UHGV virus genome: UHGV-0383075
Direction: 5' to 3' (one strand)
Length of the DNA stretch: 10,197 nt
Origin: a virus
Part shown: one piece after another, positions 6,149 to 9,613 of the stretch
Layout of the letters: every line of letters starts with the position of its first letter
How positions within the stretch are numbered: position 1 is the first letter of the stretch
Program-made: the position numbers and the translations under genes
Notes under the pieces: generated by a model
Databases searched by the model: none
What the model saw: only the letters and a program-made list of their open reading frames with translations
Told to the model about the DNA's origin: nothing

Positions 6149-6337
6149 ATGATGTCTGTTGTATATGTGCAGTTCTCGGATGAAAAAGAAACAGAAATCG
6201 TCTCTGTTTTTGCATCTCCAGCCGACCCGGATTACTACCATTTTCTTGGTGAAGTTGATGAATCTGATGAGAGATTGACAAACTTTTGGAAGCAATTCCC
6301 TCAGCATGGATTAGGATCTGGATCCTCCACGCCCTGA
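6149..6337 (+). CDS. Small hypothetical protein downstream of tail fiber (possible fiber chaperone remnant or cargo gene)
   Basis: 62-aa ORF (61 aa from the ATG at 6152) with a strong AGGAG RBS at 6141-6145. It is acidic, AT-rich, and sits where a tail fiber assembly gene would be expected, but it is too short and I do not recognise it as a Tfa protein. Confidence 0.35.
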   Translation: MMSVVYVQFSDEKETEIVSVFASPADPDYYHFLGEVDESDERLTNFWKQFPQHGLGSGSSTP

Positions 6338-6370
6338 ATGGGGCGCACTGGATAAAAAGTTTCCGGTCGG

Positions 6371-6416
6371 AGATAAATGAAACCGCAGCCACGTCGTATG
6401 CAAGAACGTGCTGCGG
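6371..6416 (-). terminator. Candidate terminator hairpin downstream of the dinI-like gene
   Basis: Imperfect stem CCGCAGCCACGT (6383-6394) / ACGTGCTGCGG (6406-6416) with an 11-nt loop. On the minus strand it is followed by a T-rich run (complement of 6371-6382, TTTCATTTATCT). The plus-strand tail is weak (TTGG). Confidence 0.3.
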
Positions 6417-6484
6417 TTGGCTGGTGAACTTCCGATAGTGCGAGTATTGAATGATTTCCAGCCGTTACCGATTTTACGTGTTAA

Positions 6485-6733
6485 TTAGTGAACAAACCAC
6501 TCGTCAGCAGATTCCCAGGTATCTTTCAGAGTCTCCTGAACAAAAGTTTTTGCAGAATCCTTATCTGCGGTGCGTGTAACAGAAAGGCCATCGTTGCTGG
6601 TGGCTTTTACGATCACCTCTACATCGTCATAACGTTTACTGATGCGTCGGGTTAATTCTTCCTTTAACGCATCCACAGCACCGGTTGGCATTTTAGTCAT
6701 TTTTTCTTTGGCTATGCAGATTTCAATACGCAT
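6485..6733 (-). CDS. dinI: DinI-family DNA damage-inducible protein
   Basis: 82-aa ORF beginning MRIE.CIAK...GA.DAL..EL.RRI and ending [16 protein letters not shown], which closely parallels E. coli DinI (about 81 aa) as I recall it. GAGGGA RBS 5 nt upstream of the ATG, with LexA boxes directly upstream. Confidence 0.85.
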
Positions 6734-6746
6734 AAAAGTCCCTCTA

Positions 6747-6766
6747 TACTGTGTTTGTATACAGTA
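6747..6766 (-). promoter_or_regulatory. LexA box 1 (SOS operator)
   Basis: TACTGT-GTTTGTAT-ACAGTA, a perfect CTGT-N8-ACAG palindrome with TA flanks as in the E. coli LexA consensus, sited between the candidate -10 and the RBS of the dinI-like gene. Confidence 0.75.
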
Positions 6767-6768
6767 TT

Positions 6769-6798
6769 ATTTTTAACTGTATGGATAAACAGTGTCAA
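6769..6798 (-). promoter_or_regulatory. Candidate sigma70 promoter of the dinI-like gene
   Basis: On the minus strand there is a consensus -35 TTGACA (complement of 6793-6798, overlapping the int stop codon), a 17-18 nt spacer containing LexA box 2, then an A/T-rich -10 (TAAAAA/AAAAAT, about 6769-6775), followed directly by LexA box 1. Confidence 0.45.
6776..6795 (-). promoter_or_regulatory. LexA box 2 (SOS operator) abutting the int stop codon
   Basis: AACTGT-ATGGATAA-ACAGTG, again CTGT-N8-ACAG, 9 bp from box 1. It lies in the spacer of the candidate dinI promoter. Confidence 0.55.
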
Positions 6799-7892
6799 GA
6801 GGTCTTATTTCTGCTCCTTTGGAGCTCTTCAAAACGATTATGTAAAGATTTCGGATACAGTTCGGTATATACCTGCCATAGCACGTTTAATGAACGATGC
6901 CCTGTAACCTGGGCGACTTCCTCAATACTAAAACCAGCCTCAAATAAGCGACTTGCCCCTTCTCTACGCAAATCATGGTATCGCAGATCTTTAATACCTA
7001 ATTTGCTTCTTACCCTCTGGAATCCCGCAGTAACAGAAGTGCTGTTATATGGAAAAATGAATTCTGATTTTTTGGGTTGTCGTTGGACGATATCCCAGGC
7101 TTCCCCAAGCAAGGCTACTTTCATATGGTTGCCTTCCTTTTTACGTGGATCTTTCCTGTCTCTTACGAGTATGGATTTTTGTTCCTGATCGAGATCCTCC
7201 CATCGTAATCGGCATACTTCACCGATTCGCATACATGACCACACAGAAAATTTGAGGATATCAACGAACGGAATTTTTGAGCATTTATGTGTAGATCGTT
7301 GTTGAAGACCTTCAATGAGCATGTCCAGTTCATCAGATGCCGGTCTACGATTACGACGATTTGATTTACCAATTAAACCAAGTTTAAGTAGATATGGACG
7401 AGCGGCTTTTGCTGGGTTTGATGTGTAATTAATTCCATATACAGGTTTGGCAGCATCCAGAACACTGCCAAGATAACTAACATCGTGGCTAACTGTAGCT
7501 GGACCTGCACCAGCGTTGTTTCTTAGCCTGCAATGTTCAATTACGTCATTTTCTGTCAGTTCAGATAGTTTGATCGCGGAGATGTCACTATCCATAAGCA
7601 GTTCCAGCACATATCTTTTAGTACGGCCTGCTTTACCTCCGGCATTTGGGTCATTTAAATATTTGTGTAGTAAGTCACGGACTGTAAGTCCGTCAACTGC
7701 ATTTGATGATGGAATGCCATATAGATCTAATTCCATCACTTTCTGTGTGCCCCATGTTTTGGCATGAGCATGTTTAGGGAATGTTTTGCTTTCCCTGTAA
7801 GTGATAACACCTTTTTCTTTGATAATCACATTACAGCGATAGCGTGGTGTGCCATCGGATTTTAGTCGTTTCTCTATGTTATAGTACGCCAT
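6795..7892 (-). CDS. int: Tyrosine-type site-specific integrase with N-terminal arm-type DNA-binding domain
   Basis: 365-aa ORF with GAGG RBS 7 nt upstream of the ATG. C-terminal catalytic signatures are present: ...RIGEVCRLRWEDLD..., ...LRYHDLRREGASRL..., ...GHRSLNVLWQVYTELY. The N-terminal stretch IEKRLKSDGTPRYRCNVIIKEKGV..SKTFPKHAHAKTWGTQ resembles the arm-binding domain of phage and island integrases. Confidence 0.85.
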   Translation of the reverse strand: MAYYNIEKRLKSDGTPRYRCNVIIKEKGVITYRESKTFPKHAHAKTWGTQKVMELDLYGIPSSNAVDGLTVRDLLHKYLNDPNAGGKAGRTKRYVLELLMDSDISAIKLSELTENDVIEHCRLRNNAGAGPATVSHDVSYLGSVLDAAKPVYGINYTSNPAKAARPYLLKLGLIGKSNRRNRRPASDELDMLIEGLQQRSTHKCSKIPFVDILKFSVWSCMRIGEVCRLRWEDLDQEQKSILVRDRKDPRKKEGNHMKVALLGEAWDIVQRQPKKSEFIFPYNSTSVTAGFQRVRSKLGIKDLRYHDLRREGASRLFEAGFSIEEVAQVTGHRSLNVLWQVYTELYPKSLHNRFEELQRSRNKTS

Positions 7893-7911
7893 TACACGAC
7901 CTCGTTATTTC

Positions 7912-7948
7912 GGGTTCCCATAAAACGTGGGAACCTGTGCGGGAACCT
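7912..7948. repeat. GGGAACC repeat cluster A: 8-bp inverted repeat plus a direct copy, 20-55 bp upstream of the int start
   Basis: GGTTCCCA (7913-7920), 7-bp spacer TAAAACG, TGGGAACC (7928-7935), then a further direct copy GGGAACCT at 7941-7948. Confidence 0.6.
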
Positions 7949-8125
7949 AACGCGAGAAAAATAGCCTGAAATGTTCAAAAATGCACGATAATCATGAAGC
8001 ACAAAAAATTAATCAAACCAGCGTGATGCCTGAAAAAACTGGTGTTTACTGGAATTCTCGGTTTAGCATTGCTCCTATGCTCGATAGGATGTACCGTTTT
8101 TTAAAAACAACTAGTTATACACTTT

Positions 8126-8147
8126 GTGGGAGCCTATTGGGAACCTG
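8126..8147. repeat. GGGAACC repeat cluster B: two direct copies
   Basis: GGGAGCCT (8128-8135) and GGGAACCT (8139-8146). The 10-mer TGGGAACCTG at 8138-8147 is identical to 7928-7937 in cluster A. I did not see this motif elsewhere in the window. Confidence 0.55.
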
Positions 8148-8160
8148 AAGTTTTGCTCTT

Positions 8161-8180
8161 TCTATTCATATCTATTCATA
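8161..8180. repeat. Perfect 10-bp tandem direct repeat TCTATTCATA x2
   Basis: Exact duplication at 8161-8170 and 8171-8180, about 25 bp upstream of the candidate -35 of the toxin operon. Confidence 0.6.
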
Positions 8181-8204
8181 AAGCACCATTTGCTGCCTTA
8201 TCTG

Positions 8205-8266
8205 ATTGACCAAAAACAACCGCGGTTATAGACTTTGCTCCAAATAGCTAAGGCTATTGCTTAGTA
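8205..8266 (+). promoter_or_regulatory. Candidate promoter and operator-like imperfect palindrome for the 8288-9278 operon
   Basis: -35 TTGACC (8205-8210), 18-nt spacer, -10 TAGACT (8229-8234). Downstream is an imperfect inverted repeat TAgCTAAG (8245-8252) / CTTAGTA (8260-8266), then GAGG RBS (8279-8282) 5 nt before the ATG at 8288. Confidence 0.3.
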
Positions 8267-8287
8267 AGTAAAACAGTTGAGGTTGCC

Positions 8288-8827
8288 ATGAATCCGTTTA
8301 ACGCCATTACTTTTGCTGCATTGTGCGGGCCTCTGGCTTGTCCTGCTGCTATGGCGCAGGAGTTCATCATCCAGCCAGCCCCTGTGATTGCTAAACCTTT
8401 TGAGTACTCTCCTTCTGTTGAGGAATTCTCACGCAGAATGGAAGAGGGTAAGGAGATCTTGCAAAAGTTAACAATTGCAGCAGATGACTACTATATCTGT
8501 TTGATTGATCTTAATAGCCAAGATGCTCGCGAGTTTGTTTCCAAAAACGGGACAGATACGACAGAGGCATGCGAAATGTTCCTGCGTGCTTTTGAAGAAG
8601 AAGTGAAGCGTACAATTGAATCGCCTCTGCCTGAATTTATCAGGTCAGAACTGAAGGTTTACTGGCGTCATATTGCTAAAGCTCGCTCATCTGTCACTCG
8701 CCTTAACAATTACATAAAGAGCATATTTAAAGAAACTGTTACGTTTAGCGGGCGCGCGGATCTTGCTGGAATTGCAGCACTAGCTAGTCACACATCAAAT
8801 AAGCTAAAATCGATGCAATTTCACTAA
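8288..8827 (+). CDS. Hypothetical 179-aa protein, first gene of a two-gene operon with a YafO-like toxin (candidate non-canonical antitoxin or partner)
   Basis: ORF with GAGG RBS and a stop 16 nt before the next start. It has a hydrophobic N-terminus (MNPFNAITFAALCGPLACPAAMA) lacking the basic n-region of a typical signal peptide, then an acidic, probably helical body. I recognise no family, and it is about twice the size of Phd/YefM/YafN-type antitoxins. Confidence 0.5.
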   Translation: MNPFNAITFAALCGPLACPAAMAQEFIIQPAPVIAKPFEYSPSVEEFSRRMEEGKEILQKLTIAADDYYICLIDLNSQDAREFVSKNGTDTTEACEMFLRAFEEEVKRTIESPLPEFIRSELKVYWRHIAKARSSVTRLNNYIKSIFKETVTFSGRADLAGIAALASHTSNKLKSMQFH

Positions 8828-8843
8828 CCGATAGCGGACGACC

Positions 8844-9278
8844 ATGCATCTAGAAGTCTCTATTAATCCAGAAACTAGAGCTGAATTTTTTGATGAAGTT
8901 TTTCTCAAATTCCCGGAGCTAGAGTCTTCTATCATTGATGATTTCAAGAGATACAAAGCAACCGGTGAGCTTCCGCATTATTTCGGTAGGGACGTTGCGT
9001 ATACTCAGCCCTATGGTGCTTTTCGGGCTGGGTTGATGCATATCCATCTTTGTCTACCGCCAAACAAGTTTCCCGAGAAACTTCCACAACCGGATAGGGT
9101 CTGCAAGAAAGGTGATCCTGATAATGATGCTTGTCTTGTGTATGTCCAAGGTGAGCTTTATGAGAATAAATATTCACTCATTGCTATTATGTATCCCGAT
9201 GCACATGAAAAAGCAAGAAAACATGATGTGATGAGCTATCTGGCGCGAATTGCCCAGAATTATAAAGATGAAAACTAA
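8844..9278 (+). CDS. YafO-family toxin homolog (putative ribosome-dependent mRNA interferase)
   Basis: 144-aa ORF. Segments DFKRYKATGELPHYFGRDVAY, MHIHLCLPPNKFPEKL and ACLVYVQGELYENKYSLIAIMYPDAHEKARKHDVM align by eye with E. coli YafO (DFISYKRDGVLPDTFGRD, VAHIHLANENNPFPPQL, AHLVYCQGAFDEQAWLLIAILKPEPHKLARDNNQM, recalled from memory). An intrinsic terminator follows directly. Confidence 0.6.
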   Translation: MHLEVSINPETRAEFFDEVFLKFPELESSIIDDFKRYKATGELPHYFGRDVAYTQPYGAFRAGLMHIHLCLPPNKFPEKLPQPDRVCKKGDPDNDACLVYVQGELYENKYSLIAIMYPDAHEKARKHDVMSYLARIAQNYKDEN

Positions 9279-9304: not shown

Positions 9305-9577
9305 TTAGTTATTTATTTTCCTATTTGTTCTTACCCTCTCCCATTCAATTCTGCCTTCTTCACGCCGTTTATCTATATATTCAGCAAGATCCTGAATGTT
9401 GATGCAGCGCTTTGCTTTCTGTGATGTACCAACACGATAAGTCGGGATCGGCAATTGGCATGCATTTGCTTTCGCTTCTGCTGTGTTAGGGCTCATACCG
9501 AAATACTTTTGGCATACAGCTGACAGCTCAATGTTTGGGGTATTGAATTCAGCCATCAGTAAAAACAAGGTGTTCAT
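9305..9577 (-). CDS. PrtN-family (pyocin activator-like) DNA-binding protein; possible excisionase or early regulator
   Basis: N-terminus MNTLFLLMAEF...VCQKYFG...LPIPTYRVGTSQKAKRCINIQDLAEYIDKRREEG matches the PrtN-family pattern (MNT.FLLMAQ...VC..YF...LP.P..R...SQKA....LQDLA.YID.RR) as I recall it. I prefer the ATG at 9577 (GGAG RBS 6 nt upstream) over the GTG at 9604 listed in the ORF track. Confidence 0.6.
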   Translation of the reverse strand: MNTLFLLMAEFNTPNIELSAVCQKYFGMSPNTAEAKANACQLPIPTYRVGTSQKAKRCINIQDLAEYIDKRREEGRIEWERVRTNRKINN

Positions 9578-9613
9578 AATTTTCTCCATCAAAACCGGCT
9601 GCACCCGGGAAAA

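What the first reader, a model, noticed from the sequence alone, without database searches (positions are those of the whole stretch)
7893..8287. Clustered GGGAACC repeats flanking an AT-rich spacer upstream of int: candidate arm-type integrase sites or attachment region
The motif occurs as an inverted pair plus a direct copy at 7913-7948 and as two direct copies at 8128-8146, about 200 bp apart, including an identical 10-mer (TGGGAACCTG). The integrase has an arm-binding-type N-terminal domain, and such enzymes recognise short repeated arm sites arranged around the crossover core. If both arms are present, this window would derive from an unintegrated or intact attP-containing genome, with the crossover core in the AT-rich 7950-8125 stretch. 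Alternatively the repeats are operators for a regulator of int or of the toxin operon.
Basis: seen in the sequence. Interest (0 to 1): 0.6.

Follow-up and report, generated by a model that had tools for sequence, protein, structure and literature searches.

The report
Integrase arm sites flanking dusA attP
The clustered GGGAACC repeats are very probably the accessory ("arm-type") binding sites of a phage integrase that inserts into the bacterial dusA gene, and they flank the true crossover point; this is an ordinary kind of element, but these sites seem not to have been described for this integrase family.

Summary
Four exact GGGAACC copies and one GGGAGCC copy lie within 233 bp, against about 1.1 copies expected by chance in the whole 10-kb window.

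The window is the unintegrated (attP) arrangement of an mEp460/phi1720a-02-like E. coli phage whose tyrosine integrase targets the 5' end of dusA. Comparing attP, attB, attL and attR puts the crossover in ATGCTCGA (8077-8084).

Relative to the core, the repeats sit at -158 (inverted), -142, -130, +57 and +68. Homology between phages carrying different cargo ends right after the last repeat.

Relatives with integrases 35-99% identical keep this architecture and spacing, but the repeat sequence changes by lineage:
- GGGGTGCT
- GGTGTAC
- GGGGTAC
- GTAGCAA
- and others

Both copies in a locus change together, and residues of the integrase N-terminal domain (three β-strands plus a helix) track the repeat class.

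This is a new member of a known kind, lambda-style arm sites. Binding has not been shown biochemically. Interest is moderate.

The parts
6795..7892 (-). int: tyrosine integrase of the dusA-specific family. Predicted N-terminal three-strand-plus-helix domain (residues 2-58), core-binding domain and catalytic domain.
   Evidence: Pfam PF00589 E=1e-20, residues 189-346. 100% identical over residues 1-364 to the Int of phage 1720a-02. AF2 model pLDDT 86. N-domain model pLDDT 91.
7913..7919 (-). P-arm site, inverted copy (GGGAACC on the - strand), 158 nt left of the core A codon and 21 nt from the int start codon.
   Evidence: An inverted copy sits at -157/-158 in YeP2 and L131 and in most Enterobacterales loci. 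It is nearly invariant among 41 close variants, while the adjacent spacer varies.
7929..7935 (+). P-arm direct site 1 (GGGAACC), at -142 from the core.
   Evidence: In 39 of 42 dusA loci the first direct copy lies 141-146 nt from the core.
7941..7947 (+). P-arm direct site 2 (GGGAACC), at -130 from the core, 12 bp after site 1.
7955..7995 (.). Phased A-tracts (AAAAAT / GAAAT / AAAAAT / GATAAT, period about 10-11 bp) between the arm sites and the dusA' start. Candidate bending or RDF-binding segment (inferred).
   Evidence: Read from the sequence. Relatives carry 3-4 tandem CAATTCA-like repeats at the same place.
7981..8148 (+). Phage-borne substitute dusA 5' fragment. 7981-8084 replaces the host dusA 5' end after integration. 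The frame then runs on into the P' arm and stops at 8148.
   Evidence: Translation and alignment to K-12 dusA. RefSeq annotates homologous stretches as partial DusA.
8077..8084 (.). Crossover block ATGCTCGA, identical in attP and attB. The 7-bp overlap lies within it. It is flanked by the inverted TCCTA/TAGGA (8074-8078 / 8085-8089), which are candidate core-type sites.
   Evidence: Four-way attP/attB/attL/attR comparison. A 7-base core was reported for the same integrase in PMC6328086. A 21-bp family motif is described in PMC4482086.
8105..8117 (+). IHF-consensus-like AAACAACTAGTTA between the core and the P' sites (candidate only).
   Evidence: One mismatch to WATCAANNNNTTR. Not enriched in the window. 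A similar match is at the same offset (+34) in mEp460 and YeP2.
8128..8134 (+). P'-arm direct site 1 (GGGAGCC, one mismatch), at +57 from the core.
   Evidence: The P'1 copy is also the degenerate one in C5a and BcepMigl.
8139..8145 (+). P'-arm direct site 2 (GGGAACC), at +68 from the core. Homology with phages that carry other cargo ends at 8145-8147.
9305..9604 (-). PrtN-family protein, the probable recombination directionality factor (RdfN-like excisionase).
   Evidence: Pfam PF11112 E=4e-24. RdfN was shown to be the RDF of dusA-specific elements in PMC8409611.

Best explanation
The region 7913-8147 is the complete attP site of a temperate phage that integrates into the 5' end of dusA. The GGGAACC repeats are arm-type (accessory) sites, read by the small N-terminal domain of the phage integrase. 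The integrase's other two domains act on the core at 8077-8084. Three sites lie in the int-proximal P arm (-158 inverted, -142, -130) and two in the P' arm (+57, +68). Bending of the intervening DNA lets arm-bound integrase molecules reach the core and build the recombination complex with attB in dusA. Candidates for that bending are the phased A-tracts at 7955-7995 and an IHF-like site at 8105-8117. After integration, the three P sites stay with int and the rebuilt dusA gene (attR). The two P' sites go to the other prophage end (attL). Excision then also needs the PrtN-like factor encoded at 9305-9604. What is shown: the repeats, the attP form, the crossover position, and the conserved geometry with co-varying repeat sequence. 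What is inferred: that Int's N-domain is the binder, that bending proteins take part, and that the P-arm sites, only 21-55 bp from the int start codon, may also let Int damp its own expression.
For: - Clustering is far above chance.
- attP x attB gives attL and attR with the exchange in ATGCTCGA. This matches published mapping for the identical integrase (PMC6328086).
- Homology among phages with different cargo (window, mEp460, SKA5, GPEC1352) stops right after the last repeat, at 8145-8147.
- The architecture recurs with a different motif in each lineage. Examples are YeP2 GGGGTGCT at -157/-142/-130/+56/+67, C5a GGGTGAC, Vibrio element GGGGTAC, GP4/BcepMigl/F1Pa GTAGCAA, and the non-dusA relatives Kp4882-1 and SS2019XI.
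- The two upstream direct copies have an 11-12 bp period in 65 of 77 species loci.
- The distance to the core is 141-146 nt in 39 of 42 dusA loci, and 152-155 (one helical turn more) in the other three. The distance to the int ATG varies from 19 to 53 nt, and the dusA' leader from 13 to 30 codons.
- The copies evolve in concert: 7.6 of 8 identical within a locus against 3.7 of 8 between loci.
- Among close relatives, substitutions fall in the spacers and not in the repeats.
- Residues of strands 2 and 3 track the motif class.
Against: - There is no biochemical evidence of binding.
- Pfam finds no arm-binding domain. The best result is a sub-threshold Arm-DNA-bind_4 match at E=0.19 in a homologue.
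- Foldseek finds nothing significant for the isolated N-domain.
- The PrtN-like RDF travels with Int (87% identical in mEp460). Covariation alone therefore cannot say which of the two proteins reads the repeats.
- The association between N-domain residues and motif class is confounded by shared descent.
- The inverted copy is absent in Vibrio-type relatives, so that site is not universal.
Confidence: 0.8

Rival explanations
1. The repeats are binding sites for the PrtN-like recombination directionality factor (excisionase), not for Int.
For: RDFs often bind tandem direct repeats with about one-turn spacing in att arms (established knowledge). The RDF gene co-travels with int, so the covariation fits either protein. 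RdfN is essential for excision in this family.
Against: The same motif is present in both arms at lambda-like distances. In well-studied systems RDF sites lie in one arm, between the arm sites and the core. Other tandem repeats or phased A-tracts occupy that inner position here and are better RDF candidates. Int has a predicted separate small DNA-binding-type N-domain whose strand residues track the motif.
Confidence: 0.08
2. The repeats are purely transcriptional operators, for Int autoregulation or for another repressor of int, of the substitute dusA or of the downstream toxin genes. They have no architectural role in recombination.
For: The P-arm copies lie 21-55 bp upstream of the int start codon, in the divergent int/dusA' intergenic region. 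An inverted pair resembles a dimer operator. Int autoregulation through att-proximal sites is known in other phages (from memory: P4).
Against: The distance to the int ATG is not conserved (19-53 nt), whereas the distance to the crossover is. A second pair lies beyond the core in the P' arm, and the conserved module ends right there. No sigma-70-like promoter was found at 7893-7980 on either strand. The only candidate, 8206-8234, lies outside the repeats.
Confidence: 0.06
3. The inverted pair 7913-7935 acts as an RNA or DNA hairpin (leader structure or terminator), and the other copies are incidental.
For: The + strand can form an 11-pair stem, -22 kcal/mol, z = -2.1.
Against: There is no terminator-like site and no Rfam match. 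The int-strand fold is not better than shuffles (z = -0.3). Relatives break the pairing, for example GGTCCCC opposite GGGAGCC in L092 and L138, and Vibrio-type loci have no inverted copy at all. A hairpin does not explain the direct copies or the P' pair.
Confidence: 0.02
4. The repeats are chance matches or relics of dusA-derived sequence, with no function.
For: In the odd GPEC620 junction the last repeat aligns next to dusA-like sequence (GGTGACC in dusA).
Against: 0 of 200 shuffles reach the observed count. The copies evolve in concert across about 70 species. Spacing is fixed.
Confidence: 0.01

Closest known systems
Bacteriophage lambda attP (arm-type sites P1, P2, P'1-P'3 bound by the Int N-terminal domain, with IHF/Xis/Fis sites)
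   Same: - A heterobivalent design is inferred: short repeats, unrelated to the core, lie in both arms.
- The overall span is about 235 bp (-158 to +75), like lambda's roughly 240-bp attP (from memory; 240-bp complex in PMC4880445).
- The N-domain is predicted as a three-stranded sheet plus helix.
- A separate small RDF is present.
- Full-length lambda Int is a structural match.
   Different: - The site count and layout are reversed, with 3 sites in P (one inverted) and 2 in P'.
- int is transcribed away from attP with its 5' end adjacent, so the P sites sit in the int upstream region.
- The core lies inside a protein-coding gene, and the P arm carries a substitute gene 5' end.
- The RDF belongs to the PrtN family, not the Xis family.
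- There is no detectable sequence similarity to the lambda N-domain or to lambda arm sites.
dusA-associated integrases and their att sites (Farrugia et al. 2015, PMC4482086; Durand et al. 2021, PMC8409611; phi-Stx2dact/1720a-02, PMC6328086)
   Same: The integrase is the same (100% identical to 1720a-02 Int). The 21-bp/7-bp core in dusA codons APMLD is the same. The substitute dusA 5' end and the PrtN-like RDF are also shared.
   Different: Those papers describe only the core repeat. The word 'arm' does not occur in any of the three main texts. No paper in the library pairs dusA with arm sites of this integrase. The flanking repeats, their geometry and their lineage-specific sequences are added here.
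P4-type and P2/186/HP1-type integrase att sites
   Same: In these systems int lies next to attP, repeated arm sites are present on both sides, and in P4 Int binds near its own promoter (from memory).
   Different: The integrase lineages, targets (tRNA genes or intergenic sites) and repeat sequences differ. No homology test was made here.

Membership tests
Arm-type Int-binding sites of a heterobivalent tyrosine integrase (lambda paradigm) | Short repeated sequence, different from the core sequence, present in both arms of attP around the crossover | tested here: met
   Three copies lie left and two lie right of the mapped crossover 8077-8084.
Arm-type Int-binding sites of a heterobivalent tyrosine integrase (lambda paradigm) | Arrangement and spacing conserved next to homologous integrases, while the repeat sequence co-varies with the integrase lineage | tested here: met
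   Ten attP-form loci and about 70 species loci were compared. Fixed offsets are -142/-130 and +57/+68, or shifted by whole helical turns. Motif classes differ by lineage.
Arm-type Int-binding sites of a heterobivalent tyrosine integrase (lambda paradigm) | Integrase carries a separate N-terminal arm-binding domain (three-stranded sheet plus helix) | tested here: inconclusive
Arm-type Int-binding sites of a heterobivalent tyrosine integrase (lambda paradigm) | Int N-domain binds the repeats, and the repeats are required for integrative or excisive recombination | not testable with these tools
   This needs EMSA or footprinting and attP mutagenesis.
dusA-specific integrase (DAI) recombination module | Integrase gene adjacent and divergent to the 5' end of dusA, with the crossover in the conserved motif at dusA codons A-P-M-L-D | tested here: met
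   attR loci run int, P arm, then full dusA (L090, L010 and others). The attL locus is L003 and attB is K-12. The exchange lies in ATGCTCGA.
dusA-specific integrase (DAI) recombination module | Element supplies a replacement 5' end for dusA | tested here: met
   7981-8084 encodes MHDNHEAQ...RFSIAPMLD, in frame with host dusA in attR.
dusA-specific integrase (DAI) recombination module | PrtN-family recombination directionality factor (RdfN) | tested here: met
   9305-9604 (-) matches PF11112 at E=4e-24. The role is defined in PMC8409611. Its function in this phage was not tested.
Transcriptional operator of int | Fixed position relative to the promoter or start of the regulated gene, overlapping a recognisable promoter | tested here: not met
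   The distance to the int ATG varies from 19 to 53 nt across relatives. No promoter-like site was found at 7893-7980. This does not exclude a secondary autoregulatory role.
Intrinsic terminator or structured RNA | Stable stem conserved through compensatory changes, a U-tract, or an Rfam match | tested here: not met
   Pairing is broken in L092 and L138, and Vibrio-type loci have no inverted copy.

The most novel reading that the evidence does not exclude
The dusA-integrase family would carry a readable recognition code. A small AP2-like N-domain, through its strand 2 and strand 3 residues, specifies a 7-8-bp arm motif. That motif has been swapped many times (at least 10 motif classes) while a rigid attP geometry stayed fixed (-158/-142/-130/+57/+68, changing only by whole helical turns). 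The P-arm sites would do double duty: they would build the recombination complex, and they would also let Int throttle its own gene in the divergent control region next to the rebuilt dusA gene. If true, arm specificity could be predicted and re-engineered from sequence alone.
Probability: 0.3. Interest if true: 0.5.

Novelty: new member of a known kind. Interest (0 to 1): 0.4.

Why it matters
- dusA-specific integrases mobilise prophages (including Shiga-toxin phages), genomic islands and SGI1-like resistance elements in hundreds of species. So far only their 21-bp core has been described.
- Defining the full attP gives the minimal functional site for integration vectors and for prophage-boundary annotation. 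In this window it spans about 235 bp, 7913-8147.
- It also explains why the mosaic boundary with cargo genes falls exactly at 8147.
- The many lineage-specific motif/N-domain pairs at fixed geometry form a natural data set. It can be used to study how heterobivalent integrases change arm specificity without losing their target.

Tried and rejected
- **tRNA target.** No tRNA or tmRNA gene is present in the window, so this is not a tRNA-targeting integrase.
- **Junction downstream of int (6340-6480).** Rejected. That region holds a DinI-like gene with LexA boxes, and all comparative junctions lie upstream of int.
- **Pfam and PDB sequence searches for an arm-binding domain.** These found nothing at threshold.
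- **Foldseek on the isolated N-domain.** Uninformative.
- **Promoter and terminator scan of 7700-8400.** It gave no site in the int/dusA' intergenic region. My manual search for -10/-35 elements was also inconclusive.
- **IHF consensus search.** Not enriched; kept only as a positional candidate.
- **Finding attL (P' arms) within the 10-kb flanks of the 80 species loci.** This failed because most elements are longer. It gave only chance hits and matches inside the int coding sequence. P' arms were instead taken from attP-form phage records and from records whose two ends could be joined.
- **IMG/VR scan.** It returned mostly near-identical copies, useful only for within-lineage variation.
Comparing RDF divergence did not help, because the two genes co-travel.

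Full report
**1. The observation**

Exact GGGAACC occurs five times in the window, four of them within 233 bp:
- 7913-7919 on the minus strand
- 7929-7935 on the plus strand
- 7941-7947 on the plus strand
- 8139-8145 on the plus strand

The expected count for the whole window is 1.1, and none of 200 shuffles reached five.

The repeat finder aligns four direct 10-mers, [G/T][T/C]GGGA[A/G]CCT, at 7927, 7939, 8126 and 8137, with spacings of 12 and 11 bp. It confirms the identical TGGGAACCTG at 7928 and 8138, and the perfect inverted pair 7913-7920/7928-7935. The copy at 8128-8134 is GGGAGCC, one mismatch from the motif.

**2. What the locus is**

The window holds these genes:
- Tail and baseplate genes.
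- A DinI-like gene (6485-6733, minus strand).
- A tyrosine integrase (6795-7892, minus strand).
- To the right of the finding, a 179-aa ORF, a YafO toxin and a PrtN-family protein (9305-9604, minus strand).

Positions 7700-8147 match lambdoid E. coli phages (mEp460, SKA5, Lys8385Vzw) at 97-99% identity. Records cut out of lysogens match only up to 8084.

In E. coli genomes, the stretch under and right of int is annotated as partial DusA. The integrase is 100% identical over residues 1-364 to that of phage 1720a-02, also called phi-Stx2dact. That phage was shown experimentally to integrate about 100 bp into dusA, with a seven-base core, and to regenerate attP on induction (PMC6328086). It therefore belongs to the dusA-associated integrase family (PMC4482086).

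**3. The crossover**

I aligned four sites:
- the window (attP);
- K-12 dusA (attB, L004);
- a lysogen's left junction (attL, L003);
- right junctions (attR; L090, L010, L017).

The alignment gives a clean reciprocal exchange. attL has the host sequence up to ...GCACCAATGCTCGA, followed by the window's TAGGATGTACCGTTTT. attR has the window's ...GCTCCTATGCTCGA, followed by the host's CTGGACGGACAG.

The exchange therefore lies in the 8-bp identity block ATGCTCGA, 8077-8084. This block codes for M-L-D of the conserved A-P-M-L-D of DusA. The block is flanked by the inverted TCCTA/TAGGA, which are plausible core-type sites (read from the sequence).

It rebuilds the gene after insertion, as described for this family.

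The window carries both arms joined, so it is in the attP arrangement. That means either an unintegrated genome or the junction of tandem prophages. Only one complete E. coli genome holds the same junction, and there in a variant form.

**4. The repeats relative to the core**

Counting from the A codon of APMLD (8071), the sites lie at -158 (inverted), -142, -130, +57 and +68.

The window, mEp460 and GPEC1352 carry three different gene sets to the right of attP. Their similarity ends at 8145-8147, immediately after the last repeat. This is what one expects if the last repeat marks the functional edge of attP.

**5. Comparative test: attP-form relatives**

I fetched attP-form relatives from phage records, and 80 loci from one genome per species. 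Every attP-form relative has the same layout built from a different short sequence:

| Element (Int identity to window) | Motif | Positions or note |
|---|---|---|
| Yersinia phage YeP2 (69%) | GGGGTGCT | -157(inv)/-142/-130/+56/+67 |
| Pseudoalteromonas phage C5a (54%) | GGGTGAC | -142/-131/+67, with a degenerate +56 copy |
| Vibrio element 1F53_PE004 (56%) | GGGGTAC | same offsets once the duplicated core of the joined ends is removed |
| Ralstonia GP4, Burkholderia BcepMigl, Pseudomonas F1Pa (about 35%) | GTAGCAA | P' pair at +77/+88 in all three; P-arm pair at -153/-141 (GP4) and -152/-140 (BcepMigl), about one or two helical turns further out; F1Pa's P-arm copies are inverted at -163/-142, plus a direct copy at -99 |
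| Kp4882-1 and SS2019XI (52% and 32%; targets other than dusA) | GGGGTGC and GTGTAAC | a pair in each arm |

**6. Comparative test: species loci**

- Across the species loci, the two direct copies upstream of int have a period of 12 bp in 46 loci and 11 bp in 19 loci.
- In 42 loci with a recognisable dusA core, the first copy lies 141-146 nt from the core in 39, and 152-155 nt from it in the other three.
- In the same loci, its distance to the int start codon ranges from 19 to 53 nt. The substitute dusA leader ranges from 13 to 30 codons.
- The two copies within a locus are 7.6/8 identical on average. Copies compared between loci are 3.7/8 identical.
- Among 41 close variants of the window's own lineage, substitutions fall in the spacers. 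The three P-arm repeats are essentially invariant.

The constraint is therefore on the repeats and on their distance to the crossover, not on their distance to int.

**7. The reader protein**

Pfam sees only the catalytic domain of Int. A homologue gives a sub-threshold Arm-DNA-bind_4 match, E = 0.19.

AlphaFold models, of the full protein and of residues 1-65, predict strands at 2-10, 16-26 and 29-38 and a helix at 41-58, with pLDDT of about 91. From established knowledge, this is the topology of the lambda and Tn916 integrase N-domains and of AP2 DNA-binding domains.

- Foldseek on the isolated domain is uninformative.
- The full model matches full-length lambda Int over all domains.
- Residues in strands 2 and 3 sort with the motif class. 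Examples: TVGVK..GKYIYREN with GGGGTGCT (including distant, non-dusA relatives); NVIIKEKGVITYRES with GGGAACC; TVGIK..GKHLHRET with GGTGTAC; SVSIK..GKRIFNES with GGTGTCC.

This fits sheet-in-groove recognition, although shared descent is a confounder.

**8. Mechanism**

The best-supported model is a lambda-style heterobivalent integrase.
- N-domains hold the five arm sites.
- The intervening DNA is bent. Candidates are the phased A-tracts at 7955-7995 and an IHF-like site at 8105-8117. That site recurs at the same offset in mEp460 and YeP2 but is not statistically significant.
- The catalytic domains exchange strands in ATGCTCGA with dusA.
- Excision needs the PrtN-like factor, as shown for this family (PMC8409611).

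The P-arm sites lie 21-55 bp from the int start codon, so Int may also limit its own expression. No promoter could be identified there, and this step is inference only.

**9. Rivals**

- **RDF binding to the repeats.** This cannot be excluded by covariation, because the RDF co-travels with Int. The presence of the motif in both arms, and better RDF candidates in the inner P arm, argue against it.
- **A pure operator role.** This is contradicted by the spacing data and by the P' pair.
- **A hairpin or terminator.** This is contradicted by the absence of a terminator or Rfam match and by pairing that is broken or absent in relatives.
- **Chance.** This is excluded.

**10. Novelty**

The three papers that define this att system describe only the 21-bp/7-bp core and never mention arms. 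Full-text searches that pair dusA with arm-type or arm-site terms find nothing relevant.

The library is limited to open-access papers, so a description elsewhere cannot be ruled out. The kind of element is classical, so I rate this a new member of a known kind, of moderate interest. Its value lies in defining the full attP for a widespread integrase family and in the unusually clear set of co-varying motif/N-domain pairs.

Noticed in passing
window 6747-6766 and about 6776-6795: Two LexA-box-like sites, TACTGTGTTTGTATACAGTA and AACTGTATGGATAAACAGTG, lie between the start of the DinI-like gene (6733, - strand) and the int stop codon. They suggest an SOS-controlled phage DinI homologue directly downstream of int.
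   Followed up: no
L158, L166, L168, L175 (Vibrio loci); L139, L156, L163 (non-dusA relatives); L170 (F1Pa): In these relatives a LexA-box-like palindrome (for example CTGTATATATATACAG) lies inside the P arm, between the arm repeats and the substitute dusA start. In F1Pa it lies beyond the P' arm. This hints at SOS control of int or dusA' in some lineages. The window's P arm has none.
   Followed up: no
L002 (E. coli GPEC620 chromosome) 6181-6630, aligned to window 7880-8300: This attP-like junction on a chromosome has about 37 nt of extra host-type dusA sequence to the right of the core, and its P'1 copy is replaced by dusA-like sequence. It may be a hybrid site from tandem or sequential lysogeny. 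It is the only complete E. coli genome that covers the whole query.
   Followed up: partly
One IMG/VR contig among L010-L089 (listing): The window-type P arm and dusA' are joined after ...CCTATGC to unrelated DNA (GTGGCTGGGCGCACAG...). This is probably integration at a secondary, non-dusA site. Two other contigs have host-type sequence left of the core, which looks like gene conversion.
   Followed up: no
window 8288-8827 and 8844-9278: A 179-aa ORF with no Pfam match and a signal-peptide-like N-terminus sits 16 bp upstream of a YafO-family toxin gene. That is where the antitoxin would be expected, so the pairing is unusual. A sigma-70-like site lies at 8206-8234.
   Followed up: no
window 7955-7995; L007, L136, L143 and others at the same relative position: Phased A-tracts with a 10-11 bp period occur in the window. 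Vibrio, Shewanella and Pseudoalteromonas relatives have 3-4 tandem CAATTCA(A/G)-like repeats between the arm sites and the dusA' start. These are candidate RDF-binding or bending elements.
   Followed up: partly
L113, L117-L125, L139, L142, L145, L156, L163, L171-L173: Close integrase relatives (53-64% identical to the window's Int; SS2019XI in L171 only 32%) lack the dusA fragment next to int, yet keep the paired repeats. This implies that target switching occurred while the arm architecture was retained. Their targets were not identified.
   Followed up: no
int coding sequence at about +140 in GGGGTGCT-lineage loci (e.g. L094, L096); about +190 in L158, L166 and L168: Motif-like pairs occur inside int itself. 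In the GGGGTGCT lineages TGGGGTGCT encodes the conserved K-T-W-G-A, so this is probably a coding coincidence.
   Followed up: no
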